NCBI GenBank assembly: GCA_002104905.1 | Contig: MCFE01000070.1 | Span: forward strand, 123,138 to 187,137 | DNA length: 64,000 nucleotides | Reading direction: 5' to 3' | From: Basidiobolus meristosporus CBS 931.73 | Lineage: Eukaryota > Fungi > Basidiobolomycota | In this document: positions 1 to 64,000 of the stretch, piece by piece | Position numbering within the stretch: position 1 is the first letter of the stretch | Layout of the letters: each line of letters begins with the position of its first letter | Made by a program: the position numbers and the translations under genes | Notes under the pieces: generated by a model | The model's database searches: none | Told to the model about the DNA's origin: nothing | What the model saw: only the letters and a program-made list of their open reading frames with translations

Positions 1-616
1 GGGATGCAAAGCTGGTTCACTTCTTACCTAGACTGGCTTGAAAATACGCCCTTCAGAAGTGAAGAACAAGGCTCGCTTAACAACCATGGTAAGAATCAGC
101 CTGATCCATCCACCACAAACTAAACTAACCATACTTGAAGGCACCTATTTTGACTACCAGTATATATCCATTGCCCTGTCTCTCGGAAGGAATGACCTTG
201 TGATTGCTACAGCCCAGAATGCGACCATTCGCAGGATAGCTGCACATATCACACCACAGGGGATTCAGCCCGAGGAGGTTAAGCGGCCAAATTCCTGGGG
301 CTATTCTGTCTTCAACATACATGGGCTGTGTCTATTGGCAAGAAGCGCAAAACTAGCCTCAGTAGATCTATGGAACTACTCAACCTCGGATGGGCGTTCC
401 ATACGTACGGGCCTAAATTATCTGATCCCATTTGCGCTGGGGAAAGCTAAATGGCCTTACAAGGATGTCCCCAAGAATGGGACACTCAACGAGTTTGTGG
501 AGATACTGGAGATAGCACGTGGAGCCTACACCGATCCAATCTATCTAAATGCGTATAACTTGTTGCACCAGAAATTTCCACCCAAAGTCAATTACAACCG
601 CTTAATGGTTTCTTAG
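1..616 (+). CDS. Alginate lyase family protein (PF05426-like), 5'-truncated by window edge; intron 89-140
   Basis: Splicing gtaag(89)...gaag(140) joins NNHG+TYFDYQ (NNH motif). Downstream I.PQG.QPEE..R..SWGYS.FN is typical of this family. Confidence 0.8.
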
Positions 617-50063: not shown

Positions 50064-52245
50064 GCTGAAAACTAGCTTTTGTGAAGGGAGGAAGAGCTTA
50101 ATTCAAACTTGGCCAAACTGAACTATATTTAGCAAATTATTACCAAAAAAATCGGATTGTAACCACCTATTACGCAGTGAAAGCTTTATTGGTGATTGGT
50201 CAACTCATGCACAGCCTCATCTCAAATGGGCCTTGAGGTAGCTTGAGTTCAGGGAGAAAGGGGTTGCTACTGACGTAGTGTGTAATAAGCAATCAAAGGG
50301 TGAAAGGGTTAATGATTCGCTATAGCGGTTAGTTAGCAAGAACACGCACAAAGTCACCTTAAAATTTCATTACCCGCAATGCGTGTTGTGTCAAATTCGA
50401 AAACACAAGATATCAGTTGATGTGCGTGATGTCAAACTCAAACGCCCATCAATGCGTATAATATCTAACTGTATATGCAGCCAAAGATGACATGGGTTGT
50501 GGTACTATGATCCTGTGAGCAGACCATGTGTGAAGGGCTTTAATTTCAACAAAAAGGAGCCATACATAATTAAGGATCTGCTTGAAGAGGAACTCTGCCT
50601 AACCAAGTGTACACAGATATTACTAAGTTAAAGCTGTATCATTAAACATACTGAGATGTCTTAATATGCTGCCATGGGTTATATTGTTGAAACCTGCATT
50701 GCCTAGTATGGTGCACTAAGATGGTTCTTAAAGAGTTGGCGTTGACAGTACTTAGCTAAGCTGATCCTACTCACCATGCATATCTCTTTTGCTAAGTACC
50801 ATAATGCTGTAACATAGATACGCTTTAGTTGACCACTACCACTACAACTGAGCTACGCCTGATGGTAGCATTTGGTAGGAACTAATATTTATTGATATAG
50901 TGTTGTAGTGTGGTTTTGACTTCTAAACAGTCAGATGGGCAAATCCCGGCGCCTGCCATCACAACTACACTTGTTTGCACATTTGGGATGTGTATTCAGT
51001 GCTATATGTTCCTTGTTTGGGGCATTTGCATCTAAGCAGCTCAGCTGGATGACAAGGCCTGTGGTTTTCCTTCCCCCATCGTGTTGGTGAACGTACACCC
51101 ATTCTGATTGCCTAGTAGAATCAGATTTGCCAGAGGTTGATAATCAATAACCAGCACCAATATCCCATCCTGCTAATGACTTATCCTTGCAATGACTTCC
51201 CATTTAAAAGGAAGTTTCCCTTTATAGCATAAATGCGTTGCGCAGCCCTTATTTTTCCAGTGCGTCTTGCCCAAGGATATCATCGGTCAACGTACCCAAA
51301 GCACACTTGTACCTAAATACAAAAGTTCGTAAGCCTATACTTATCCATGCTATGATATGCTGGGTAGACCTTCAGACCATTGTTTTATTAGCCATGGAAG
51401 AGAGGAGTGGAATTCCTTTGCCATCAAATACTAGAATATATCTTCTTTCTCTATATGTATTGCAAACACTTGATAAACCATTGCCAGATCTCAGGATAGA
51501 TTAGTAGAGAAATGTTCAATATGTCAGTTGCATCAATGGGGCGATAAGGATTGTGGTATGAGAGCCGTCAGAGTCTAATAACCTTATATATGCTCGCTAG
51601 TCGTGCGAGTTCAAGTAAGGAGTCTATAGTTTATTGTGCATTAGAGAATACAAACGATGGGAAAGTTCTGAGATAATTACTGGGGTGTTATAAGGCTTGA
51701 GCAAGAGTAGCACGGACTACAATGATATCGGTATTCCTTAACATCACACAAAAAACCGCTCTGCATCAGCGGTGGCCTTTCCCATACCCTTGTGGTGATG
51801 GTGACTATTCTTGGGTTGGGGCATGTTACCTCAAGTAGTTGTTGACTTTAGGTGAGCATCAATTCTTGAAGGCGGGAGTGTAGAGTAAGTCTACTGGGTT
51901 AAGTAAACAATGACAAGGAAAGCTAGGATGGGACCGCAATGCTGGAAAATAATGCCGTCATTAGGAAGAAAGGCTAGCCAACAGTGGTAAATAAGGAGGC
52001 TACACATATGACCGATATAACCATGGCCGGTGTTGACATTCTTCAGATAAGTTTGGGGCGTTAGGATTAGGGTTAATAAGTCAACATGGTTTGCAGGCGA
52101 AAATATAGTGATGCTTGAATTCTGGCTTAGGGTTAGATGCTGGCTAGTCCACCTCTTTTTACCATCCAATGATATTTGCACTCATGCCATGTTGACTTGG
52201 AAGCTACTAGTAACAATCTATATTCGACCTGGATATAGTCAAAGA

Positions 52246-52283
52246 GCGGGCGACAGTTAGGGGCTTAGGCGGGCGACAGTCAA
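52246..52283. repeat. Old telomere-junction motif: GCGGGCGACAG-TTAGGGG-CTTAG-GCGGGCGACAGTCA
   Basis: Resembles TTAGGGGCGGGAGACAGTCA at 61491-61510; first copy is cut after GACAG and followed by TTAGGG. Confidence 0.55.
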
Positions 52284-52353
52284 ATATATACTCATCAAAT
52301 CAGTCTAGTTGTGGTTATTCTAGCTAATTCTGTTTCATTATTGCTGCCTTGCA

Positions 52354-53001
52354 ATGGAAAAGCTAGAATGCCCTGATTGCCGGAAGAATTTATCCAGTAC
52401 AAGTGCCCTTTATCAGCACATACGGAGGGTACACAAAAAACCTGTGATTGTCCGCAGAGGTCGACTGCCAAAATATTCTTCAAAAGAGGAGCAGCGGGAG
52501 GCTGCCAAGAGACGGCGCCAATCTCGCATGTCACAACCACCAGTAAAGGAATACGAAAGCTTAATAATTATAGTAAGGAAGGCAATGGAAGCCTATCACA
52601 AAGATGCAATCTGCAGATTGGCCATCCCAGCAGTCCTCTACGCTTGCATGGATTCAAAAGTGTCTGATTTAGCTGATATGTCGGAATATTGCAAAGTCAA
52701 AGTAAATACGCGAACACAACTAGAACAGGCAGCTACGGAGTATCTAAACAAGAAATATCCTGGAATAATTTTGGGTTTTCAATTCATTCTGCTTAATCGC
52801 TATGCTTCAGAATTCTCCTGCCTGTTGAATAACATTCTTAATACTCACTTGAAAGAGACCACCGCAGATTGTAGAGAAGGAACACCAGCGAGCACAAAGC
52901 ATAATGCGGAGGATAAGCAAACGTCTGGTGCCCACAACGGAGGTAGCACTAGCAGAATACGCTCAGCACTACAGCAATTTTTTGATGTATTGTCGCTCTG
53001 A
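52354..53001 (+). CDS. Intronless C2H2 zinc-finger protein with AT-hook-like basic motif, probably mobile-element cargo
   Basis: CPDCRKNLSSTSALYQHIRRVH, then RRGRLPKYSSKEEQREAAKRRR; lies in the repeat-rich subtelomere. Confidence 0.65.
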   Translation: MEKLECPDCRKNLSSTSALYQHIRRVHKKPVIVRRGRLPKYSSKEEQREAAKRRRQSRMSQPPVKEYESLIIIVRKAMEAYHKDAICRLAIPAVLYACMDSKVSDLADMSEYCKVKVNTRTQLEQAATEYLNKKYPGIILGFQFILLNRYASEFSCLLNNILNTHLKETTADCREGTPASTKHNAEDKQTSGAHNGGSTSRIRSALQQFFDVLSL

Positions 53002-53838
53002 TATACAATCATCACTTGCTCATTGAGTACTCATGGCTTGTCTCGACTGATATTCTGCTAACTAGTTGATCTGAACCTTTGCCATCCCTGCTATTGGCCA
53101 CTTTCTCAGTTTTTCCTCCTACCTGTTATATCCCAAGAACTCAATATATCACTGATTGGGGATACTAAACTCTTTTTGACAATTGAGCTATACTAATACA
53201 GAGGGATAAGAGGCTCCACTTGGCATTTCACTTAGTATGGGTGCTAAGCTGACTGTTTTAACCATTGCGTTCCCACTGTAGCCAGTCACCTCATTCCCAT
53301 ATCAATGAAAATTGGTGCCTATGCACTCATGGTGAAATAAAGTCACATTGTCAGTAGGTTAATTTTAATTGTTGGTATTAGTATCCACCTTTTGACAATC
53401 ATGACACCACTAACATCAGCTTCCACTTTATTTTGACAACATCAAGCAGACTCCATTGCTTTGCAGCCACTGGCAGGTGGCCACATCATGGATGCAGCCT
53501 TGTTGCCATGGTGAAATATCTTTGCTTAGGACAGTTACAGTTGCCAGCTGGAAGAATCACTCTTCAATAGACTTGAGTACAGAGGTCATATGCTATATCA
53601 GAAGCTCTTTGAAAAAAACTGAGCAGGATCATTTTGTGAAAGCCAGTAGGAGAGCTTATTAATCTCAGATATGGCAAGAAAAGAGCAAAATGGAACTAAT
53701 TGTGCAGTTGTTGTGGCAATGGTTGAGAAAGGCTAGAGACAAAAGAGATTAGTTGTAAAAGCATCACCTTGTGGGTGAATGCTTTGAAAACGGAGCTAAG
53801 TATTTCTGCATGACCAAATAGCCTATGGGAGTGAGTGC

Positions 53839-54187
53839 TGTTGTAACAATTCAGAATTTCACCCAAATATTCAGCTGCCTTGGTCACTTAGATCATTACC
53901 TTCTCACTCTAGAGAATAATGGCCAGCTTCCTTGTTGGGATCTACTTGGAATATTTTCACCAGAATATCAGGTACCCAAAACATGAAAATTAGGTAAGTT
54001 GTACAAGCAGCTTCAAACTTTGCACACATTTTTTTGGGACCTTCCTTAACCTATTCTATGGTCTTGCTATGCCAAGACTATGTAAAAGTACAAATACTAC
54101 TTTTACATTCAATAAATCATTAAGTAAAAACCACTTAATCTGCTTGTTCTCCCAATCACTTCCAATATCTCCAAAACTCATACTACA
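53839..54187 (+). mobile_element. Degenerate solo LTR related to the downstream Copia LTR
   Basis: TGTTG start, CA end; long co-linear similarity to 54349-54679 (gtcacttagatcatt...gggaccttccttaacctatt...aataaatcattaagt...tcacttccaatatctccaa). Confidence 0.7.
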
Positions 54188-54348
54188 GTTGCAGCAAGTT
54201 GTAAAGTCTCAGAAATAGTGTGAAACAGTAACAAAGCATCTCAGGATTGAACATTCCTTATCTTAAATGATGCTGGCTCATGCTGCACTTGTAGACTTAA
54301 ATTAACTCCGTATTAAGCTTGCATACAGCTATTTTGATATGTTTTAGC

Positions 54349-55450
54349 TGTTGTAAGAGTTTGTATTTCCACCTAAATATTCACCTAACTTAGTCACTTA
54401 GATCATTCCTTCATATCCTAGAGAATACTGACCAAATTCCTTGTTGGGATTTACTTAGAATATTTACCCAGAACATGAAAATTCTCAAAGTTGTCCAAAC
54501 AGCCCCAAACTTTGCACACATGTTCTTGGGACCTTCCTTAACCTATTATACGTGTTTGTAATGCCAAGACCAGGTAAAAGTATAAATACTGCTTTCACAT
54601 TAATAAATCATTAAGTGAAAACCATGTAAACTACTTGTTGTCCCAAATCACTTCCAATATCTCCAAGACTCTTGCAACAGGTTATAAGCCCCAAGCTGTC
54701 ACTCTCTGCAATGTCTACTACTGCTATTACTGGAACTTTCCCCTCTGCTGAAAAGTTGGATGGATCTAACAACCAAGTGTAGAAGGTGAAGATGAAGATG
54801 CTGCTACAAGAAAGAGACCTTTGGGATATTGTCATGGGAGATGAATGCCCTCCTAAGCACATGGGAGAGGAAGCCTTGAAGTACCAGAAAATAGAACAGA
54901 GTACCTTTAACTGCATTTGCCTTAATGTCAAGACAAGTTGCCAATTCAATGCTCAAGAGCAAAAAAGGCAAAGAATGCCTGGAAGGCATTAGAAGACACC
55001 TACCAGTTGTGTTCAGCTGCTAAGAAAATGTATCTGAGACAAATACTCCCTACTACAAAGATGCTGCCAGGAGAAGAAATGAAAAATCTAATTAACAGAA
55101 TTACCCTGCTGGTAGATGTGATGGAATCTGTGGGCATACCAACTACTGATCAGGATGTGATAGTTACCATCCTGAAAAGCCTGACAGACAAGTTTCAGGG
55201 CCTTGTATTATCCCTAGAGTCAAGAACTGAAGATTTGACCTTAAATTATGCATATGGAAGGCTCCTGGTTGAAGAATTAAGAAAATCAAGTGCAAATAAG
55301 AAGGAAGAAGAATATGCTTTAATAAGCAATGATAACCAACAAAGGAGGTACCCAAGACCCTTCAAAGGCAACAGCAACCTATTTTGTAACTACTGCAAAA
55401 GGAAAGGACACACATCAAATCAGTGTCTCAAAAAGAAAGATAATCAGTAA
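54349..55450 (+). mobile_element. Truncated Ty1/Copia retrotransposon: 5' LTR 54349-54679, PBS 54680-54692, decayed gag
   Basis: LTR inverted ends TGTTGTAAGAGT/ACTCTTGCAACA; PBS GGTTATAAGCCC (copia-type GGTTATGRGCCC). Gag KLDGSN..*KVKMKMLL..RDLWDIV has a stop and a frameshift and ends in the CCHC knuckle CNYCKRKGHTSNQC; no pol. Confidence 0.9.
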
Positions 55451-55518
55451 AAGAAGCCTGAATATGGAAATGCTTAGGGTGTAGGTGTTATAGTAAGGGC
55501 TAGGAAAAGGTTAGAAGA

Positions 55519-55588
55519 GCAGGGGGTCTGGGGGACGCAGTCCCCTAGAGAATAAAATAGCAGGGGGTTTGGGGGATGCAATCCCCCA
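55519..55588. repeat. Two copies of a G-tract plus GC hairpin motif
   Basis: GCAGGGGGTCTGGGGGACGCAGTCCCC and GCAGGGGGTTTGGGGGATGCAATCCCCC; stems GGGGAC/GTCCCC and GGGGGA/TCCCCC. Confidence 0.75.
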
Positions 55589-55601
55589 TACTGCTCCCAT
55601 A

Positions 55602-57203
55602 TGTTGTGCATCAACATTGAAAACTTAGCCAATTTTACTCCATTTGAAAATCTAGTACCCTAACTGATTTTCCCTAACCCAAACATAACAAATCCCAGTT
55701 ACAGTTTATTTTATCCCACCTCAGAATCTATTTTTAGCTATCACACCTGATCTATTTTCAAATGGTCATTATGTTATCAACCTATCTGCCAAGCCTTCCC
55801 AGGTGATTTGTCATCTGAGATCTATCCAACCACTGTGCAGTTGCCAAGACATCAATTGATTGATGATGTAATTTTCATCTTATGCACCTACGAGCACCCA
55901 AATTGATTTCAATCTATCCAGTCCCTTGGCGCTTACTAATTCAACTTGATTAGAAAAGTATAAATAAAGTTTACTGAACCTTTTGGTTTAGTGTGTGTCT
56001 CAACAAAATTAAGATTCTGTCTCAGCAAAAATAAGAGTCCAACAATTCAGTTCTAGTTTCTATCCAAGCCTAGTATATCTAGCACTCCAAAGAACACCAA
56101 GCCTAGCCTGCCTAGCAAACAAATATCATTGTCTTTATAGCCAACCCAGCTATATCCAAGACCAATATTAGATCAGAATCTCTCTGCTAATATTTCCACC
56201 ACTCTCTGACAATTCCAAGATTCTGCACTTAATTGTCCCTTTGGTTCAGTTAAACCATTCAAGAGTTTTATTACACTTTCTCTTGGATACAACATTTTTT
56301 TGTTGAATTCCATTACATTCAGCCAATTAGAAAATGTCCTCAGTAGCAAGCAATCCAAACCTTTCCATGTTGGAAGAAGCCAGAAGAAATCAGGAAGAAC
56401 TTACTGAACAGCTTGAAAACATCATGCTTGAAAGAAATACCATGATGCTTGAGCACTCAAAGCTTGCCAAAACAAGATCTGATAATCACTATAGAGATGA
56501 ACTCCTTGAAGTTATATCCGGTTACTAAGATGAAATTGGAATAATTAAAGAAGCACTGGAGGATATTGTCATAGTAATTGACAGCATTGAAAATCCGCCA
56601 AGCCGTGCTCTGCATCAGCCACCAAGAAGCCATGCCTTTGAATCCTCCAGATCTACATCTCCTTCTAGACCTGCCCCGGTGGTTGTCCCAAGATCCTTGC
56701 TTGTTTATGCTGAAGGCACCAATGCCATCAAGAGTCCAACTGAGTTTCTTTACAAGTTTAGTCATGTCTTAGATGCACACCAGCTAGACTCTGACACCAA
56801 CTGGGCTAGACTTCTGCCTCTCTGTCTCACAATGCAAGATGCTGACTGGGTTGAAGTGAACATTCCTTCCAATAGTATGTGGAAAATTGCCCAAAACCTC
56901 TTTTGCAGCCATTTTGAAGATCCTCTCAAGAAAGCACATCTGAACTGCAACTTATGGAAAACTAAAATGCAAAAAGGTGAATCTGTGCAACACTTCTGTG
57001 ATAGATTTCAAAGACAAATGAGATTAGCTGGAGTTAGTGATGATAATCCATCGCTTACTGCTCATTTTCTTTCAAACTTTTCACACCAGCTACAGAGCAA
57101 TATTGCTATTCTCAAAGCATGCAACCCTGCACGTACCTATGACCAGATCTCAGAGATATGTACACTGGCAATCACCTTGACTGCAGCTGTTAGCCAGATT
57201 TAG
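55602..57203 (+). mobile_element. Truncated Ty3/Gypsy relic: possible LTR 55602-56005 and gag pseudogene 56334-57203 (one internal TAA)
   Basis: ORFs 56334-56528 and 56679-57203 are in one frame; NWARLLPLCL...W...F...F...LWKTKMQKGESVQHFCDRF is retrotransposon gag-like. TGTTG...CAACA with TATAAATAAA suggests an LTR (less certain). Confidence 0.75.
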
Positions 57204-57222
57204 GGTTAGGGTTAGGGTTAGG
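57200..57222 (+). repeat. Interstitial telomeric repeat (TTAGGG)3 TTAGG
   Basis: Directly visible; separates the Gypsy gag from the AT-rich island. Confidence 0.97.
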
Positions 57223-57670
57223 CGAGTTTATGGCATGAAGTATTATTATTCTCTGCAATTGGTTTGTTGGATGATAAATTAGTTTTGTCAGCACACCTAT
57301 CATCCAACAACCTTTCTTCTTGCAAATTTTTTTGTAAATTTTGATAATTTGTATTAATAACAGATTGCAATTCTTCTTCTGTGTATAGGTAATGTTCCAT
57401 TAATGCAACGTAAGTCAGTGCAACCTTTGATATATGATACCCGCAATATTCTGAATCTTGTTTGACTTTGTGGCCGCATTTAGAACCTTTATTATGTCCA
57501 GTGGTTATTATAGCAATACATTTACAACTTTTTGCAGATTTGTCTGGATTATATTCTTGGTTAGCTAATATGGCATTTCTTGCATTGCAAATATGCAGTA
57601 TACATTGGTTAAGCCTTTTGGTTATATTGCTTTCAAGTTGGGCAAATAACTTCTGAATTTCAAATTCCAT
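57218..57670 (-). CDS. Zinc-ribbon protein with giant-virus-type C-x-A-x4-G-x2-K-G-x2-C...C-x2-H motif (DUF5763-like)
   Basis: CIAIITTGHNKGSKCGHKVKQDSEYCGYH; its TAA stop overlaps the last telomeric unit. Confidence 0.6.
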   Translation of the reverse strand: MEFEIQKLFAQLESNITKRLNQCILHICNARNAILANQEYNPDKSAKSCKCIAIITTGHNKGSKCGHKVKQDSEYCGYHISKVALTYVALMEHYLYTEEELQSVINTNYQNLQKNLQEERLLDDRCADKTNLSSNKPIAENNNTSCHKLA

Positions 57671-58030
57671 AGTTAGTTAACTTGCAAGTTAATCCAATAG
57701 TTGATTTAAAATCAGATGATAATAGAGAATATATATATAACATAAATTGTACAGATAATAGAAGCTAATATTACAAATAACAAATGATTGAGTTACGTGT
57801 GTAGGCCCAGAGTATCATTGACCAATCAATAAATAAAAAATTTTTTGTCAAACATTTTTTTTGCAAATTTATTTTTTGTGAATCCAGTTTGTTATATTAT
57901 CCACATTTTGTAAAAACCCATTTTTAATTCATAATTTTGTTAAACCTTGAATAACCCCATCTAAACTTAAAAAGTTTTTACAAACCCTAAATAATCTGAT
58001 CTCAACAACAAATTTTTTATTATCTTAAAC

Positions 58031-58460
58031 CCAAATTAATATCTTTGCATCAAGATTTAAACTTTAATCATCACGCCAAACTTTTTTAAATTATAAACGT
58101 TAAACTCGGATTAATATCTTTGCATCAAGATTTAAACTTTAATCATTACGCCAAACTTTTTTTAATTATAAATGTTAAACTCAAATTAATATTTTTGCAT
58201 CAAAATTTAAATTTGGATCATCACGCCAAACTGTTTTAAATTATAAATGTCCAACTAGGATTAAAATCTTGTCTTCAAAATCTAATTTTGGTTGTCCCAA
58301 AACTTTTTTAACAAACTTCTAAACGTCATACTAGAATTCAAATTTTGTCTTCAAGATTTGAGTTTGGTCGTTTTAAAACTTTTTTAACAAACTTCTAAAC
58401 GTCCGACTCAAATTAGTTTTTTGTTTTTAAAAATTTAGCTTTATCACCCCGCAAACTTTT
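58031..58460. repeat. Array 1 of ~75-bp degenerate tandem repeats with palindromic core
   Basis: Unit starts at 58041, 58116, 58191, 58266, 58342; core such as AATTCAAATTTTG-TCTT-CAAGATTTGAGTT. Confidence 0.9.
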
Positions 58461-58645
58461 TTTAACTCCAAAAATTATTTAACACAACAAAATCTTAACA
58501 ATCACACCAGTTTTAAATCTTTTACATTACTTGTTCAACAAATAAAAATTCATCCAGACTTTTTGTCCAAACCTCTTTTTTTAATCTATGTTTTTAATCT
58601 ACGTTTTTATTGTAAGTATTTTTTTGTTAAACTTGTTAATACCAC

Positions 58646-59062
58646 TTAAATCATAACGCCAATTAACATTAATAACATAATAAACAAACCGTTTATAGTT
58701 ATTTTAGAACTGTTGGACCCCATTGGAAATACACAATTTCTACCTGGGGTTGTAATATTAGTATACATCCTTGTATTTCTGAAGTTGATATGATCACATT
58801 GGACAGAACAATACGTAAAACCATTTGTTGAACACAAATTAATTGCTTCTGAAGTCTTGTTTTGCAAAATATCTAAATTTGTATTATTGTTGTAGTTTAA
58901 ATAAACCCAATAATTAAATCCTTTGCATGTTCCATTAGTAACAACACCATTAGTAGACAAAGTTATCATATTAAAAAGATCCTTGTTTAAAAACATAAAT
59001 GCATTTAAAGTAAGAACTGTATTTATTTCTGCAACTTGGATGTATGTAAGAATGCAATACAT
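58646..59062 (-). CDS. Small Cys/Asn-rich protein with C-terminal hydrophobic anchor (glycoprotein-like)
   Basis: Several NxT/S sequons, six Cys, C-terminal ITINGLFIMLLMLIGVMI. Confidence 0.55.
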   Translation of the reverse strand: MYCILTYIQVAEINTVLTLNAFMFLNKDLFNMITLSTNGVVTNGTCKGFNYWVYLNYNNNTNLDILQNKTSEAINLCSTNGFTYCSVQCDHINFRNTRMYTNITTPGRNCVFPMGSNSSKITINGLFIMLLMLIGVMI

Positions 59063-59209
59063 AATTTAAAGTTTGTAAAAACTTGTTTATTTTTGTATAT
59101 AACAATCAAACAATATTATTACTTAAACCCTTAAAGAAAAATAAAAACAAATTTCTAAACGCTTAATTAGAAACTTTTTAACATTTAACATAATTGTTCC
59201 AGAAATTTT

Positions 59210-59785
59210 TTATGATTTAATCTGCAATAACAATGCATTATGTTTAACAGAAAAATATTTTGATTTTTGTTTTTGTTCCCATTTTAAATTCATAAGTTGT
59301 TGTTGTATTTCTTTTAATTTGACGCCATAAGTTTTACGTTCTTGATCTAGCTTTTTTATTTTTAAGTTTAATTTTGTTAATTTTTGTTCTATGCTTGGAT
59401 TACACTCTTGTTGAATCTTTTGTTCCGTCCAACTAATTTCTTGTTGAACTTGCTCTGTTTCTTGATTTATATGCTTTCATCTTTGTTCTATTTGGGATAT
59501 CTCATGTGCAACTTGTTTTAATTGTTGGTCAACTCCATCTTGAAAACTTTGCTGCTCTGGTTTAAGTTCACTTGCTAATTTGCTAATATTTTGGATTTTT
59601 ATTTCCAATGCTGATTTTCTTGGTTTGTATACATTATATACGTTGAAAACCATGTGTATAATATATATTATACATATTACATAATAAATTAATTTTTGCT
59701 TTTTTGACGAATCTGAAATAATGTGCATAATAATAGTTTTGTACATTTGTGTCAACAAATTTTTAACTTTACAATCAATATCCAC
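59210..59785 (-). pseudogene. TM plus coiled-coil ORF interrupted by a single in-frame TGA (59477-59479)
   Basis: The frame continues 88 codons past the TGA (KHINQETEQVQQEIS...) to TAA 59210; TM segment LIYYVICIIYIIHMVF. Confidence 0.7.
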
Positions 59786-59814
59786 AGTTTATCTATAATC
59801 CAAGCTTAATTGCT

Positions 59815-60440
59815 TATAAACTTTTTTAAAACATCTAAATGTCATACTAAAATTAGTATTTTGTCTTTAAAACCTGAGTTTGGTTGTTTTAAAACTTTTT
59901 TAAAAAATTATAAACGTTAAACTAAAATTAATATCTTTGCATCAAGATTCAAACTTTAATCATCACGCCAAACTTTTTAAAAAAATATAAACATTAAACT
60001 TGAATTAATATCTTTGCATCAAGATTTAAACTTTAATCATCACGCCAAATTTTTTAAATTATAAACATTAAACTTGGATTAATATTTTTACATCAAGATT
60101 TAAACTTGGATCATCACGCCAAACTTTTTTAAAATATAAACGTTAAACTTGGATTATTATTTCATATTCAAACTTAACTGAGACAAAATTCTTTACAAGT
60201 AGTTAGTTGTTTCAAGATCTAAACTTTGTCAAAAAACTTTTTTAAAACCAAATTTTTTAAACATCAAACCCAAATTGTTATTTTTTGTTTCAAGACTTGG
60301 ACTTAGTCTCAACAAAAAAATTATTTCAAGATCTAAACTTGGTCAAGACAAAACTTTTTAAAAAATTTTTACACGTATAACTTGAATTAATATTTGTTTC
60401 AAGACTTGAACTTGGATCATCCCGCAAGACTTTTTTAAAT
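59815..60440. repeat. Array 2 of the same ~75-bp repeat family
   Basis: Unit starts at 59858, 59933, 60010, 60084 (atctttgcatcaagatttaaactttaatcatcacgccaaac); degenerate units continue to ~60440. Confidence 0.9.
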
Positions 60441-60547
60441 CAGATAAAAAAAATATTTTGCGCAAATAATTTTAATATATATATTAATTATAAAACAAAT
60501 ATAATGCCATTTTGCTCAATCAATATTAAACCAATTTTTGCAAAGGT

Positions 60548-61300
60548 TTAAAAAGATGTTTGTATCATGTAAGTTAAATATCTTACTAATGGTGCAAGTT
60601 GTTGTTTCCACAAATCTGGGTCTTTATTAATATAGATTTCTACTGGGTCAAATTTGGCTTTGTGTTCCCACCTTAATTTAGACCTAATCTCATCCAAATC
60701 GTTGTTATCAAAAATGTCTTCTCTGTTTGGTCCAACACACCAAATAATTTCCCACATATATCCTGAAGTTATAGCTCCATAAACCGTATGATCCATTCAA
60801 TGACCACATTTTATATTTTGCATATAAGCGTTATATAATTGCATAAGATTTTGGGCTTGACCTTGGTTCCACCCTTCTTGTTTTGCCTCAACAATAATTA
60901 CAAACTGTTTTTTATTTACAATCACAAATTCAACCGTACCCTTTACAGCATCACCTATAAGATTAAATTCTTGTTCAAGTTTAACCTCTTTATCGTAATA
61001 TAAAGCAACAATATTATATAATATTGTCAATACAAAATCACCTTGGGTAGTTTCTCCTTTGTCATCAACAACGCCCTTGGCTTTTGTAAGATTAATAAGA
61101 GACTTGACTATATGATTTAATGTATCTTCATCAACATCTGCTCCTTCAAGTTTAGAATCCATTGCCAAAAATTCTCTATATTTGATACCAAGAAACTCCA
61201 AAACTTTTTTGTAACTGATATTTGAATACCCGCCTTTATTTTCAGATTTATATTTATCTGATGTTGTAGATAAATTGACTATTCTTTTTTTGGTTGCCAT
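60548..61300 (-). pseudogene. PD-(D/E)xK restriction-endonuclease-fold protein interrupted by an in-frame TGA (60797-60799)
   Basis: GTVEFVI...IIVEAKQE...GQAQNLMQL...*..VYGAITSG..W; ORFs 60797-61300 and 60548-60796 abut in one frame. Confidence 0.7.
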
Positions 61301-61443
61301 GAAAAAATATTACAAATAAGTTGTTCAATGATAAAACATAAATGCAAAATAATAAATTTCAAATAAATGTAATATTATTATGTTAATTGGATTTTTTGCA
61401 TTTATCATCCAATATATACCATTTTTAATTCTCAGATGCAAAC

Positions 61444-61532
61444 TTAGGGTTAGGGGGGAGACAGTCACCAACAGGTGAAATCTTTAGGGTTTAGGGGCGG
61501 GAGACAGTCACCAACAGGTGAAATCTTAGGGT
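61444..61532 (-). mobile_element. Two ~30-bp stubs of the conserved element 3' tail, each flanked by telomeric repeats
   Basis: TTAGGG..GAGACAGTCACCAACAGGTGAAATCTT-TAGGG at 61458 and 61501. Confidence 0.75.
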
Positions 61533-62059
61533 AGGGGGGGAGGAAAGTCACCAAGTGGTGAAATCTTTATTTACTTATGACAAGTATCTAAAGAAGCCAA
61601 GTTAATCTGAAGTAATTCCTAGAAAGCTAGGTCTGAGAGATATCTTCCTGGTAAGCCAGGTCTGAGAGTTGAGAAGCTGAGTGGTACTATATTTCCTAGT
61701 TAGCTAGGTCTGAGAGAGGTTTCCTGGAAAGCCAGGCCTGAGAAGTGAGAATCTGAATATATCTGAGCTAAGTTATACTGGTTTGCGGTAGCTGAATTGT
61801 GGCCGGAATGGCCAGTAGACTGGGGGAACTGAGAGGAATTTCTGGGCGATCACTGGCCAAATTTACTAGGCAAATCTGGCCAATTAGCATTTCAAGGATT
61901 TCAGCCAATCAGAGCCTTTACTTTGCCCGATGGTTGATCAAGCCATCTCCCAATGAGCACACATCAATTTATTAATCAAATTTTGCTGGATCCAGGATTT
62001 GAACCCACAACCATGGGTATGGAAGGGTTAGGGATAACCACAAGGCTAAGTGTTCTTGG
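61533..62059 (-). mobile_element. tRNA-headed SINE-like telomeric element, copy 1 (527 bp)
   Basis: Minus strand A box TAGCCTTGTGG (62038-62048) and B box GGTTCAAATCC (61995-62005) at tRNA spacing; 3' end carries the shared tail. Confidence 0.7.
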
Positions 62060-62586
62060 TTAGGGGGAGGAAAGTCACCAAGTGGTGAAATCTTTATTTA
62101 CTTATGACAAGTATCTAAAGAAGCCAAGTTAATCTGAAGTTGTTCCTAGAAAGCTAGGTCTGAGAGATATCTTCCTGGTAAGCCAGGTCTGAGAGTTGAG
62201 AAGCTGAGTGGTACTATATTTCCTAGTTAGCTAGGTCTGAGAGAGGTTTCCTGGAAAGCCAGGCCTGAGAAGTGAGAATCTGAATATATCTGAACTAAGT
62301 TATACTGGTTTGCGGTAGCTGAATTGTGGCCGGAATGGCCAGTAGACTGGGGGAACTGAGAGGAATTTCTGGGCGATCACTGGCCAAATTTACTAGGCAA
62401 ATCTGGCCAATTAGCATTTCAAGGATTTCAGCCAATCAGAGCCTTTACTTTGCCCGATGGTTGATCAAGCCATCTCCCAATGAGCACACATCAATTTGTT
62501 AATCAAATTTTGCTGGATCCAGGATTTGAACCCACAACCATGGGTATGGAAGGGTTAGGGATAACCACAAGGCTAAGTGTTCTTGG
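62060..62586 (-). mobile_element. tRNA-headed SINE-like telomeric element, copy 2
   Basis: About 99% identical tandem copy (four base differences seen); A box 62565-62575, B box 62522-62532. Confidence 0.7.
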
Positions 62587-62610
62587 TTAGGGTTAGGGTT
62601 AGGGTTAGGG
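62587..62610 (+). repeat. Interstitial telomeric repeat (TTAGGG)4
   Basis: Directly visible. Confidence 0.97.
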
Positions 62611-63842
62611 GATGATCATCACCAAAGGGTGAAATCTTTATTTAAATAATAAATAAAGAAGCCAAGTTTGCATATGAATATCTGAGATGCAGGAAGCCTA
62701 CAAGATAAACTTGGACTTTGCTGTATCCCAAATATCCTCAATATCAAAGTCTAGAGGAGAGTGTAGCAAGACTGCTTGTTCACTGTAGTATTTCTTGAGG
62801 AAGTTTGTGACTTGAAGGGAAGGAGAGTTTTTCAACAAGCTGGTAAATCTTTTGAGGAGTTCTTTTTCCAGAGAGAATGGCACAAAGAGTGGAATGTCCA
62901 AATGATGTCTGAATATATGCTCTGAGAGCTCCCAATCCAGCATATTTTTGACTTCTTCTGTAAAATCTTCAACAATATCTTTGTCAAGAATAACTTCCAA
63001 GAGATCCCTGGCAATGTACTGAATGTTAATAATCTTAGGCATATGAATACCTAGGTCCTTGAGGTAGTTTCTTTGTTCTGATATTGGGAGATATCCTGCA
63101 TTTCTGAAATAGCAAACTGCCCAGTTGGCAGTAGGAGGAGTATCAGGGCTGACAGGGAATCTTCTTCTGGCTTTAGAGTGCACTGGCTTAGGAGACTGTC
63201 TTGATGGAAGGGCAGCTGGTTTTGGATGAGCTTGAACTGCTTGGGAGTAGGTCTGAGTACAAGTAGTAGAAGTTCCTGGTTGCTGAGAATTTTCAGATTG
63301 ACTGGATGAAGAGCTAATTGAGGGGTTGCAAGGTAAGGAAGAAGCTGAAAGAGAAGTGGAGAGGGCTGGGTGAAGTTCAGAAAGAGTTTTGAAAAGAATT
63401 TGGATCTGAGATTTCAACATTGAGTTTTCAGCTTCAAGAAGAGAAACTCTTTGTTCAAGGTAAGAAGTCTGTAAAGAGTGAAAGTTGGGTAAAGACATGG
63501 AAGTAGTAAATAAGAAGAAAGGAGTAGTTGGGGTGGGAGGGTGGGAAAATAGGTAAGAAGAAAAGAGAGGAAAGATCTGAAATTGAAAATCTCAGAATTT
63601 ATAGATGGATGGACAAGGGTAGAGGATTGATTAATCCAGGGTTAGGGAAAAATAGGTAAGAAGAAAAGAGAGGGTAGTAAATAAGAAGAAAGGAGTAGTT
63701 GGGGTGGGAGGGTGGGAAAATAGGTAAGAAGAAAAGAGAGGAAAGATCTGAAATTGAAAATCTCAGAATTTATAGATGGATGGACAAGGGTAGAGGATTG
63801 ATTAATCCAGGGTTAGGGAAAAATAGGTAAGAAGAAAAGAGA
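62611..63842 (-). mobile_element. Terminal non-autonomous telomere-associated element carrying one ORF
   Basis: Bounded by TTAGGG tracts; 3' tail TCACCAAAGGGTGAAATCTTTATTT...AAAGAAGCCAAG is shared with the SINE-like units. Confidence 0.7.
62698..63498 (-). CDS. ORF1/gag-like protein of a non-LTR or Penelope-like retroelement (266 aa, intact)
   Basis: N-terminal coiled coil (LEQRVSLLEAENSMLKSQI), S/P-rich linker with TYSQAV, then an RRM-like VCYFRN...LKDLGI..PKIINIQYI..LLEVIL segment. Confidence 0.55.
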   Translation of the reverse strand: MSLPNFHSLQTSYLEQRVSLLEAENSMLKSQIQILFKTLSELHPALSTSLSASSLPCNPSISSSSSQSENSQQPGTSTTCTQTYSQAVQAHPKPAALPSRQSPKPVHSKARRRFPVSPDTPPTANWAVCYFRNAGYLPISEQRNYLKDLGIHMPKIINIQYIARDLLEVILDKDIVEDFTEEVKNMLDWELSEHIFRHHLDIPLFVPFSLEKELLKRFTSLLKNSPSLQVTNFLKKYYSEQAVLLHSPLDFDIEDIWDTAKSKFIL

Positions 63843-63844
63843 GG
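63503..63844. repeat. 171-bp direct tandem duplication in the element 5' region
   Basis: gtagtaaataagaagaaagg...aataggtaagaagaaaagagaggg starts at 63503 and 63674; each copy contains one GGGTTAGGG. Confidence 0.95.
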
Positions 63845-64000
63845 GTTAGGGTTAGGGTTAGGGTTAGGGTTAGGGTTAGGGTTAGGGTTAGGGTTAGGGT
63901 TAGGGTTAGGGTTAGGGTTAGGGTTAGGGTTAGGGTTAGGGTTAGGGTTAGGGTTAGGGTTAGGGTTAGGGTTAGGGTTAGGGTTAGGGTTAGGTTAGGG
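63843..64000 (+). repeat. Telomere, (TTAGGG)n ~26 units, G-rich strand pointing to the chromosome end
   Basis: Directly visible; one TTAGG variant near the end. Confidence 0.99.

What the first reader, a model, noticed from the sequence alone, without database searches (positions are those of the whole stretch)
57218..61443. AT-rich virus-like island captured between two telomeric junctions
Seen: 4.2 kb far more AT-rich than the host genes, with four intronless head-to-tail ORFs. They encode a zinc ribbon CIAIITTGHNKGSKC...CGYH, a glycoprotein-like membrane protein, a TM/coiled-coil protein and a PD-(D/E)xK nuclease. Known: the CxAxxxxGxxKGxxC...CxxH motif is common in nucleocytoplasmic large DNA virus proteins, and endogenous giant-virus fragments occur in early-diverging fungi. 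Terminons also carry co-oriented restriction-like nuclease, coiled-coil and TM ORFs. Inference: either a relic of an undescribed fungal large DNA virus fixed at a chromosome end or cargo of a giant telomeric retroelement. No hallmark viral gene (MCP, PolB, A32) is in the window.
Basis: partly seen in the sequence, partly recalled or inferred. Interest (0 to 1): 0.8.

Follow-up and report, generated by a model that had tools for sequence, protein, structure and literature searches.

The report
Virus-like DNA scrap at fungal telomere
A 4.2-kb AT-rich, partly broken block of four genes, likely a scrap of a foreign multi-copy DNA element (a giant-virus relative is the best guess, unproven), sits near a fungal chromosome end, likely patched in during telomere repair, an ordinary route for such relics.

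Summary
The island is real: 57223-61443, GC 0.26 against 0.45 for the host part, four co-oriented intronless ORFs, and two arrays of a 75-bp repeat. Corrections: two ORFs carry an in-frame stop, ORF A's stop comes from the telomere repeat (the gene is likely cut), only 51% is coding, and the right 'junction' is the end of a high-copy telomere-type element. The nuclease-fold gene D has relatives named only from Basidiobolus, Cunninghamella and Rhizopus, mostly on short contigs, and none in the viral or prokaryotic collections. ORF A resembles giant-virus clusters only weakly and misses Pfam DUF5763. One public sample holds exact island pieces at low depth and 90-96% identical relatives of A, B and D, so the block belongs to a family; no listed contig bridges either junction. 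Best reading: a decaying fragment of a foreign AT-rich element, likely giant-virus-derived (such relics are published for Basidiobolus), end-joined onto a freshly healed chromosome break and then capped by telomeric retroelements. Terminon cargo is not supported. No viral hallmark gene was found, so viral origin stays at about even odds.

The parts
56529..57198 (+). Left flank: Ty3/gypsy-like gag remnant, broken at 57198
   Evidence: Retrotrans_gag E 1.4e-4, below cut-off; related copies stop matching at 57198 (records 21 and 28) and one goes on in non-telomeric letters (table 7)
57200..57222 (+). Short telomere tract (3.8 TTAGGG), likely added de novo on the broken gag; supplies the stop codons of both gag and ORF A
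57218..57670 (-). ORF A, 150 aa, zinc-ribbon-like C/C/C/H motif; likely cut at the junction
   Evidence: No homologue, no Pfam DUF5763 hit, Atlas neighbours viral at 0.89-0.92 with low recognition 1756; 91-92% identical relatives in the same sample
58025..58470 (+). First array of the 75-bp AT-rich direct repeat (3 good and about 3 decayed units), not palindromic
58646..59062 (-). ORF B, 138 aa, Asn/Cys-rich with a C-terminal hydrophobic segment; predicted small membrane glycoprotein; no credible homologue
   Evidence: diverged relatives in the same sample
59210..59746 (-). ORF C, membrane anchor plus predicted coiled coil, interrupted by an in-frame TGA at 59477-59479
59810..60445 (+). Second array of the 75-bp repeat, 87% identical to the first over 257 bases
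60548..61300 (-). ORF D, restriction-endonuclease-fold (PD-(D/E)xK-type) gene, interrupted by an in-frame TGA at 60797-60799
   Evidence: 73% to Basidiobolus ranarum K7432_000347; family of 15 hits; model of relative P0007, pLDDT 87.7, Z 12.5 to BpuSI
61444..62584 (-). Right flank: 3' ends (three 40-bp hairpin units) and two 527-bp copies of a high-copy non-coding element ending in hairpin plus CCCTAA; A- and B-box-like motifs at the head suggest a SINE-like element
62585..63840 (-). 5'-truncated telomere-type element with a 266-aa coiled-coil ORF and a related 3' end; no reverse transcriptase
63842..64000 (+). Terminal telomere array, 26.7 copies

Best explanation
The island is a partly broken four-gene fragment of a multi-copy AT-rich DNA family, likely foreign and probably derived from a giant-virus relative, that was likely end-joined onto a freshly healed chromosome break and then likely capped by telomeric retroelements and telomerase. 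Steps: (1) the chromosome broke inside a Ty3-like gag gene and gained about four telomere repeats (sequence shown; order inferred); (2) that short, unprotected end joined a 4.2-kb piece whose break falls inside ORF A (inferred from the stop codon lying in the repeat); (3) the new free end received several copies of the genome's own telomere-type elements and a full telomere (structure shown; mechanism inferred by analogy with MoTeR ends in the blast fungus); (4) the piece is now a relic, with stops in two of four genes (shown). In the source element D would be a DNA endonuclease, B and C membrane proteins and A a zinc-binding protein (predicted only).
For: Composition far outside the host range with no TpA excess (0.75, as in the host), so AT richness looks native, not mutational decay. 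Exact island pieces with 0 differences are in public contigs, and so are relatives of A, B and D at 90-96% identity. D's named relatives are confined to three genera of two phyla and lie mostly on contigs of 1-24 kb; window D pairs with the B. ranarum protein at 100/99 support. Endogenous pithovirus-related elements are reported in B. meristosporus, B. heterosporus and Cunninghamella elegans (PMC7017919). ORF A's Atlas neighbours are 100% viral, three of the four shown Nucleocytoviricota. Related gag copies stop matching exactly at 57198. The right-hand element has many different left neighbours (table 7). Capture of internal DNA at broken ends by end-joining or break-induced replication is described for Magnaporthe (10.1101/845669, PMC8381367).
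Against: No viral hallmark in the frames scanned. No relative of A, B, C or D in IMG/VR, none in PHROGs at E under 0.001. A misses DUF5763 and its Atlas recognition is below the level of trust. D's Atlas neighbours at 0.96 are eukaryotic clusters (Mucoromycota, Ascomycota, Oomycota), and its viral fold matches are generic, TM under 0.35. 51% coding is low for a giant virus; Mycodnaviridae contigs are described as gene-dense, and no capsid gene was found in non-zoosporic fungi except Dimargaris (PMC13533422). Rhizopus is not among the published hosts. Neither junction is bridged by a listed contig, and exact pieces have depth 4-56 against 176 for the nearest left-hand contig. Differences between copies are synonymous in only 12 of 32 listed sites against about 27% expected at random, weak support for selection.
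Confidence: 0.5

Rival explanations
1. The block is a piece of a non-viral fungal mobile element or linear plasmid (for example a nuclease-carrying DNA transposon or an AT-rich cytoplasmic plasmid), captured at the telomere by the same repair route.
For: D's family is eukaryotic by Atlas, multi-copy in Cunninghamella echinulata (6 of 15 hits) and absent from viral collections. Stand-alone restriction-fold nucleases are common in early-diverging fungi (recalled, Crinkler-type domains; not tested).
Against: No transposase, protein-primed polymerase or terminal inverted repeat was seen. ORF A's neighbours are viral (weak). Long repeat-filled spacers are unlike compact plasmids (recalled).
Confidence: 0.27
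2. The block is cargo of a giant Terminon-like retroelement, copied from RNA onto the telomere overhang.
For: All four ORFs run in the same direction as the neighbouring telomere-type elements, with CCCTAA at their 3' side; Terminons carry coiled-coil and membrane ORFs and capture genes between elements (PMC6431247). A strong hairpin lies 22-90 bases inside the left end (z -4.2, 1 of 119 windows below -3).
Against: No hammerhead and none of the five shared 3' hairpins lies in the island or at its left end. GC 0.26 and CpG o/e 0.57 against 0.42 and 0.10 in the distal elements. No reverse transcriptase. ORF A is cut by the repeat. Read by eye, three of the four listed stem differences of a diverged copy break the hairpin.
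Confidence: 0.1
3. The join is an assembly chimera, and the AT-rich piece comes from a contaminant, symbiont or free low-copy replicon in the culture.
For: Exact pieces have low depth, 60800-61383 has no cover at 90% identity, and no listed contig bridges a junction. Both flanks are high-copy repeats.
Against: No relative in 185,579 prokaryote genomes by pattern search. In-frame stops suit a relic, not a live replicon; code 4 is not supported (all 8 other Trp codons in B, C and D are TGG; no Trp in that column in any of 14 relatives). Relatives reach depth 137-221 in the same sample, and the B. ranarum gene is on a 61-kb contig. The tables list only 16 of 1523 records, so a missing bridge proves nothing.
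Confidence: 0.13

Closest known systems
Fundsalphavirus endogenous elements (pithovirus-related NCLDV relics in early-diverging fungi; PMC7017919)
   Same: Reported in Basidiobolus and Cunninghamella, with premature stops and among LTR retrotransposons, as here.
   Different: Defined by PolB, with D5, helicase, methyltransferase and RNA polymerase genes; none is in the island. None of the four ORFs or the 75-bp repeat is tied to them by any search, and telomeres are not mentioned in the main text.
Mycodnaviridae (PMC13533422)
   Same: Intron-poor, compositionally distinct viral DNA integrated in fungal chromosomes.
   Different: Defined by a major capsid gene, in zoosporic fungi and Dimargaris; large and gene-dense, with long inverted terminal repeats; Basidiobolus is not mentioned in the main text.
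MoTeR-driven capture at blast-fungus telomeres (10.1101/845669, PMC8381367)
   Same: Short interstitial telomere tracts, de novo telomere addition, truncated retroelement arrays and capture of internal DNA at chromosome ends.
   Different: There the captured DNA is host sequence and the elements are MoTeRs; here the DNA is compositionally foreign and the elements are unclassified.
Terminons and endonuclease-less Penelope-like elements (PMC6431247, PMC8557442)
   Same: Co-oriented ORFs, reverse telomere repeats at 3' ends and 5' truncation; fits the right-hand flank better than the island.
   Different: No reverse transcriptase or hammerhead found; the island lacks the shared 3' end.
Pithovirus M1/M2 intergenic repeats (PMC10664404)
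   Same: Arrays of short repeats fill about a quarter of the sequence, as in pithoviruses (21-24%).
   Different: M1/M2 are palindromes with 47-54-bp terminal inverted repeats; the 75-bp unit is a direct repeat that folds no better than shuffles (z -0.16, -0.28, -1.63).

Membership tests
Endogenous Nucleocytoviricota element | Hallmark gene (capsid, PolB, A32, D5, RNA polymerase) inside the island or window | tested here: not met
   Pfam scans of the island and flank frames and of 38 frames of 1-49 kb show none; shorter frames were not scanned
Endogenous Nucleocytoviricota element | Hallmark genes linked to other copies of the same family | not testable with these tools
   No genome held; contigs of the named relatives could not be fetched
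Endogenous Nucleocytoviricota element | Composition distinct from host, no introns | tested here: met
   D aligns without intron-sized gaps to its relatives; no RNA data
Endogenous Nucleocytoviricota element | High gene density | tested here: not met
   51% coding
Pfam DUF5763 (PF19067) | ORF A scores against the profile | tested here: not met
   No hit at E up to 1; an Atlas cluster with DUF5763 in 39% of members ranks 7th at 0.89, a lead only
Fundsalphavirus | PolB in the fundsalphavirus clade | not testable with these tools
   No PolB in the window; host genus overlap only
Terminon / endonuclease-less Penelope-like element | Reverse transcriptase gene | tested here: not met
Terminon / endonuclease-less Penelope-like element | 3' hammerhead ribozyme next to reverse telomere repeats | tested here: not met
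   No hammerhead by Rfam or core-motif scan; reverse repeats are present
Terminon / endonuclease-less Penelope-like element | Co-oriented ORFs incl. coiled-coil and membrane proteins | tested here: met
Pithovirus M1/M2 repeats | Palindromic unit with terminal inverted repeats | tested here: not met
PD-(D/E)xK restriction-endonuclease-like fold (ORF D) | Fold and conserved acidic/ExK/Q motifs | tested here: met
   Model of relative P0007 (48% identical): Z 12.5, rmsd 3.4, 153 aligned to BpuSI; Z 11.1, rmsd 2.8, 137 aligned to DrdV; top rows are mitoribosome chains at Z 15.1 and 14.9; E138, K140, Q150, Q154 nearly invariant. Activity untested
Organelle or Mollicute DNA (TGA read as Trp) | TGA at conserved Trp positions | tested here: not met

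The most novel reading that the evidence does not exclude
The island is an accessory-gene block of a capsid-less, pithovirus-related DNA element that still persists at low copy in Basidiobolus and Mucorales and is being deposited at chromosome ends during telomere repair; ORF D and the 75-bp repeat would be markers for recovering its whole genome.
Probability: 0.17. Interest if true: 0.75.

Novelty: new member of a known kind. Interest (0 to 1): 0.42.

Why it matters
Giant-virus relics in non-flagellated early fungi are known almost only from polymerase fragments. If this block belongs to them it gives the first accessory genes and a repeat marker to walk out to the rest of the element, and it shows one concrete way such DNA enters a chromosome, through telomere repair. 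If it is not viral it still marks a small, patchily distributed nuclease family in Basidiobolus, Cunninghamella and Rhizopus. As it stands it is a broken 4-kb relic with no hallmark gene.

Tried and rejected
No whole genome is held, so other segments with the 75-bp repeat could not be read. ORF A: no homologue among 3 candidates, none in IMG/VR; a search of viral contigs for its zinc motif alone was not run, so how often viruses carry that spacing is open. ORF B: the one hit among 1.84 billion representatives (P0004, E 1.6e-6) is a bacterial-type PPC-repeat protein whose score is summed over four repeats, best stretch 33.5 bits; treated as chance. B's single-sequence model is unusable (pLDDT 38) and was not fold-searched. 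ORF C: only low-complexity coiled-coil matches, nothing in IMG/VR. ORF D family: nothing in IMG/VR, JGI metagenomes, prokaryote genomes or PDB sequences; these pattern searches reach close relatives only. A 32-base piece of the repeat has no exact match in viral or prokaryote contigs. Distal ORF: nothing in metagenomes. Genetic code 4 rejected. Hairpin-rule terminators (Pithovirus obeys the rule, PMC4402537): only one strong hairpin, inside ORF A, with a 15-base loop; none comparable after B, C or D. No tRNA, no Rfam family at threshold. No RNA holder listed. Earlier findings: five look-ups, nothing. Joints that skip the island (table 5) have only 20-21 letters of TTAGGG on the short side and are not taken as empty sites.
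Full report
What is there. The window is a fungal chromosome end: ordinary host genes fill 1-49 kb (amino-acid transporters, ERO1, fatty-acid desaturase, ribosomal L35Ae; 16 of 38 frames with a Pfam hit, none viral or retroelement), LTR-retrotransposon remnants follow (copia gag E 3.6e-14 at 55028, Ty3-like gag E 1.4e-4 at 56529), and a 26.7-copy TTAGGG array ends it. The host is inferred to be Basidiobolus-like only from ORF D's closest named relative; no host gene was used to check this. The island 57223-61443 has GC 0.261; no window of that length to its left is below 0.391. GC3 is 0.18-0.28 against 0.51-0.61 in five host frames (two more host rows were read on the wrong strand and dropped). 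TpA o/e is 0.75, as in the host, so the AT richness does not look like mutational decay.

The four ORFs. All lie on the minus strand. A (150 aa) has the zinc-ribbon-like motif, but its stop codon is formed by the telomere repeat, so it is likely cut. It has no homologue and no DUF5763 hit. Its Atlas neighbours are viral clusters at 0.89-0.92, three of the four shown Nucleocytoviricota, but recognition is 1756, below the 2300 that the tool trusts. B (138 aa) looks like a small membrane glycoprotein and has no credible homologue among 1.84 billion representatives. C (membrane anchor, predicted coiled coil) and D each hold one in-frame TGA. This is not code 4: the 8 other Trp codons in B, C and D are TGG, and none of 14 relatives has Trp in that column of D. 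D has a real family: 15 hits among 2898 candidates, of which one is the window's own truncated product, one B. ranarum (73%), six Cunninghamella echinulata and seven unnamed; one unnamed cluster holds two Rhizopus delemar proteins. Apart from the window's own, the longest contigs are 1-24 kb for 12 of 14, 61 kb and 156 kb for the other two. Window D pairs with the B. ranarum protein (100/99). A model of relative P0007 (pLDDT 87.7) matches type IIG restriction endonucleases (Z 12.5 BpuSI, 11.1 DrdV), below two mitoribosome chains at Z 15; viral fold matches are generic. Its Atlas neighbours at 0.96 are eukaryotic, which counts against a specifically viral gene.

The spacers. Coding sequence is 51% of the island; about 26% is two arrays of a 75-bp direct repeat, found nowhere else in the window. 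Unlike the palindromic pithovirus repeats (PMC10664404, passages) it does not fold.

The junctions. Left: related gag copies stop matching at exactly 57198 and one continues in non-telomeric letters, so the chromosome broke there and gained 3.8 telomere repeats. Right: the two repeats at 61444 belong to the end of a high-copy element; loose ends show at least four groups of contigs (6-18 each) with unlike left neighbours. Five element ends between 61465 and 62632 share a TCACC-N4-GGTGA hairpin before CCCTAA on the minus strand; the island has none. No hammerhead was found. The island is therefore not built like the genome's own telomeric elements, whose GC (0.42) and CpG o/e (0.10) also differ from its 0.26 and 0.57.

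Public reads. Four runs hold the stretch, all one sample and study, possibly the source of the window, and kept as contigs only; they are not independent. Exact pieces cover most of 57353-60217 at depth 14-56 and 60599-60750 at depth 4; 60800-61383 has no cover at 90%, though 60668-61061 is covered at 85%. Relatives exist: A at 14 differences in 158 bases (depth 179) and 22 in 275 (depth 5), B at 14 in 141 (depth 52-54) with others up to depth 221, D's 3' end at 7 in 187 (depth 66). So the block belongs to a family in this genome or culture. The low depth of the exact pieces against 176 for the left-hand contig hints that only part of the nuclei carry this end, but the tool warns that contig depth is no copy number. 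No listed contig bridges a junction; only 16 of 1523 records were shown. Of 32 listed coding differences 12 are synonymous and none is a stop, against about 27% synonymous at random: weak.

Mechanism. Most likely a break in the gag remnant was healed by a short telomere, the unprotected end joined a foreign fragment broken inside ORF A, and the new end was capped by telomeric elements and telomerase. Each step has a counterpart at blast-fungus telomeres (10.1101/845669 and PMC8381367, passages). The order is inferred. For the source, the best lead is the fundsalphaviruses: pithovirus-related PolB elements listed for B. meristosporus (3 loci), B. heterosporus (2) and C. elegans (3), with premature stops and retrotransposon neighbours (PMC7017919: results section, supplement parts 1-2 of 7). 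The overlap with D's named hosts is two genera of three and is circumstantial. Mycodnaviridae fit less well (PMC13533422: section 6 and passages; its supplements were not read). Terminon features are from PMC6431247 and PMC8557442 (passages). The likeness of D to Crinkler-type nuclease domains and the compactness of linear plasmids are recalled, not tested.

In print. Searches for Basidiobolus with giant virus or Pithovirus terms, and for fundsalphavirus, each returned only PMC7017919; it does not mention telomeres in its main text. The library lacks most subscription papers, so this is no proof of absence.

Verdict. A real, decaying, foreign-looking island captured at a chromosome end. Viral origin about even odds; best explanation 0.5, non-viral mobile element 0.27, chimera 0.13, Terminon cargo 0.10. 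New member of a known kind; interest 0.42.

Noticed in passing
window 61536-62584 (minus strand; boxes at 62532 and 62005): Two 99%-identical 527-bp non-coding units start with A-box- and B-box-like motifs 43 bases apart, with a CCCTAACCC between them, and end in the same hairpin plus CCCTAA as the ORF-bearing element: likely a telomere-attaching SINE-like element. Only one other B-box match exists in the window, without an A box. ARAGORN and Rfam see no tRNA. Very high copy in public contigs.
   Followed up: partly
window 62698-63498 (minus): 266-aa ORF with an N-terminal coiled coil, preceded by an exact 171-bp tandem duplication; resembles ORF1 of telomeric Penelope-like elements (recalled), but no reverse transcriptase follows and no relative was found.
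   Followed up: partly
window 61428-61444: By eye, the last 15 or so bases before the right TTAGGG match, with an 8-base gap, the 3' untranslated part of the distal ORF element in the opposite orientation (output); possibly a templated filler at the junction, possibly chance.
   Followed up: no
window 57244-57313 (minus): Strongest hairpin of the island (z -4.2) lies inside the end of ORF A; codons 108-134 differ mostly non-synonymously between copies (8 of 10), so the true protein may have ended earlier.
   Followed up: partly
window 59068-59082: A related copy at depth 45-49 differs by three small indels just upstream of ORF B's ATG, so B's N-terminus may differ between copies.
   Followed up: no
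window 52061-57199: CpG o/e falls to 0.21 beyond a degenerate telomere motif at 52061 (0.67-0.80 to the left), which suggests methylation-driven CpG loss in the subtelomeric repeats; a roughly 500-bp tandem duplication lies at 53837-54680.
   Followed up: no
window 52001-53910: The only long public contig here differs from the window at 24 of 1911 bases, whereas island contigs are exact; the window's end may be a minority haplotype or paralogue.
   Followed up: no
window 32-616: Alginate-lyase-domain gene (E 2.4e-20) in a fungal host; possibly of bacterial origin.
   Followed up: no
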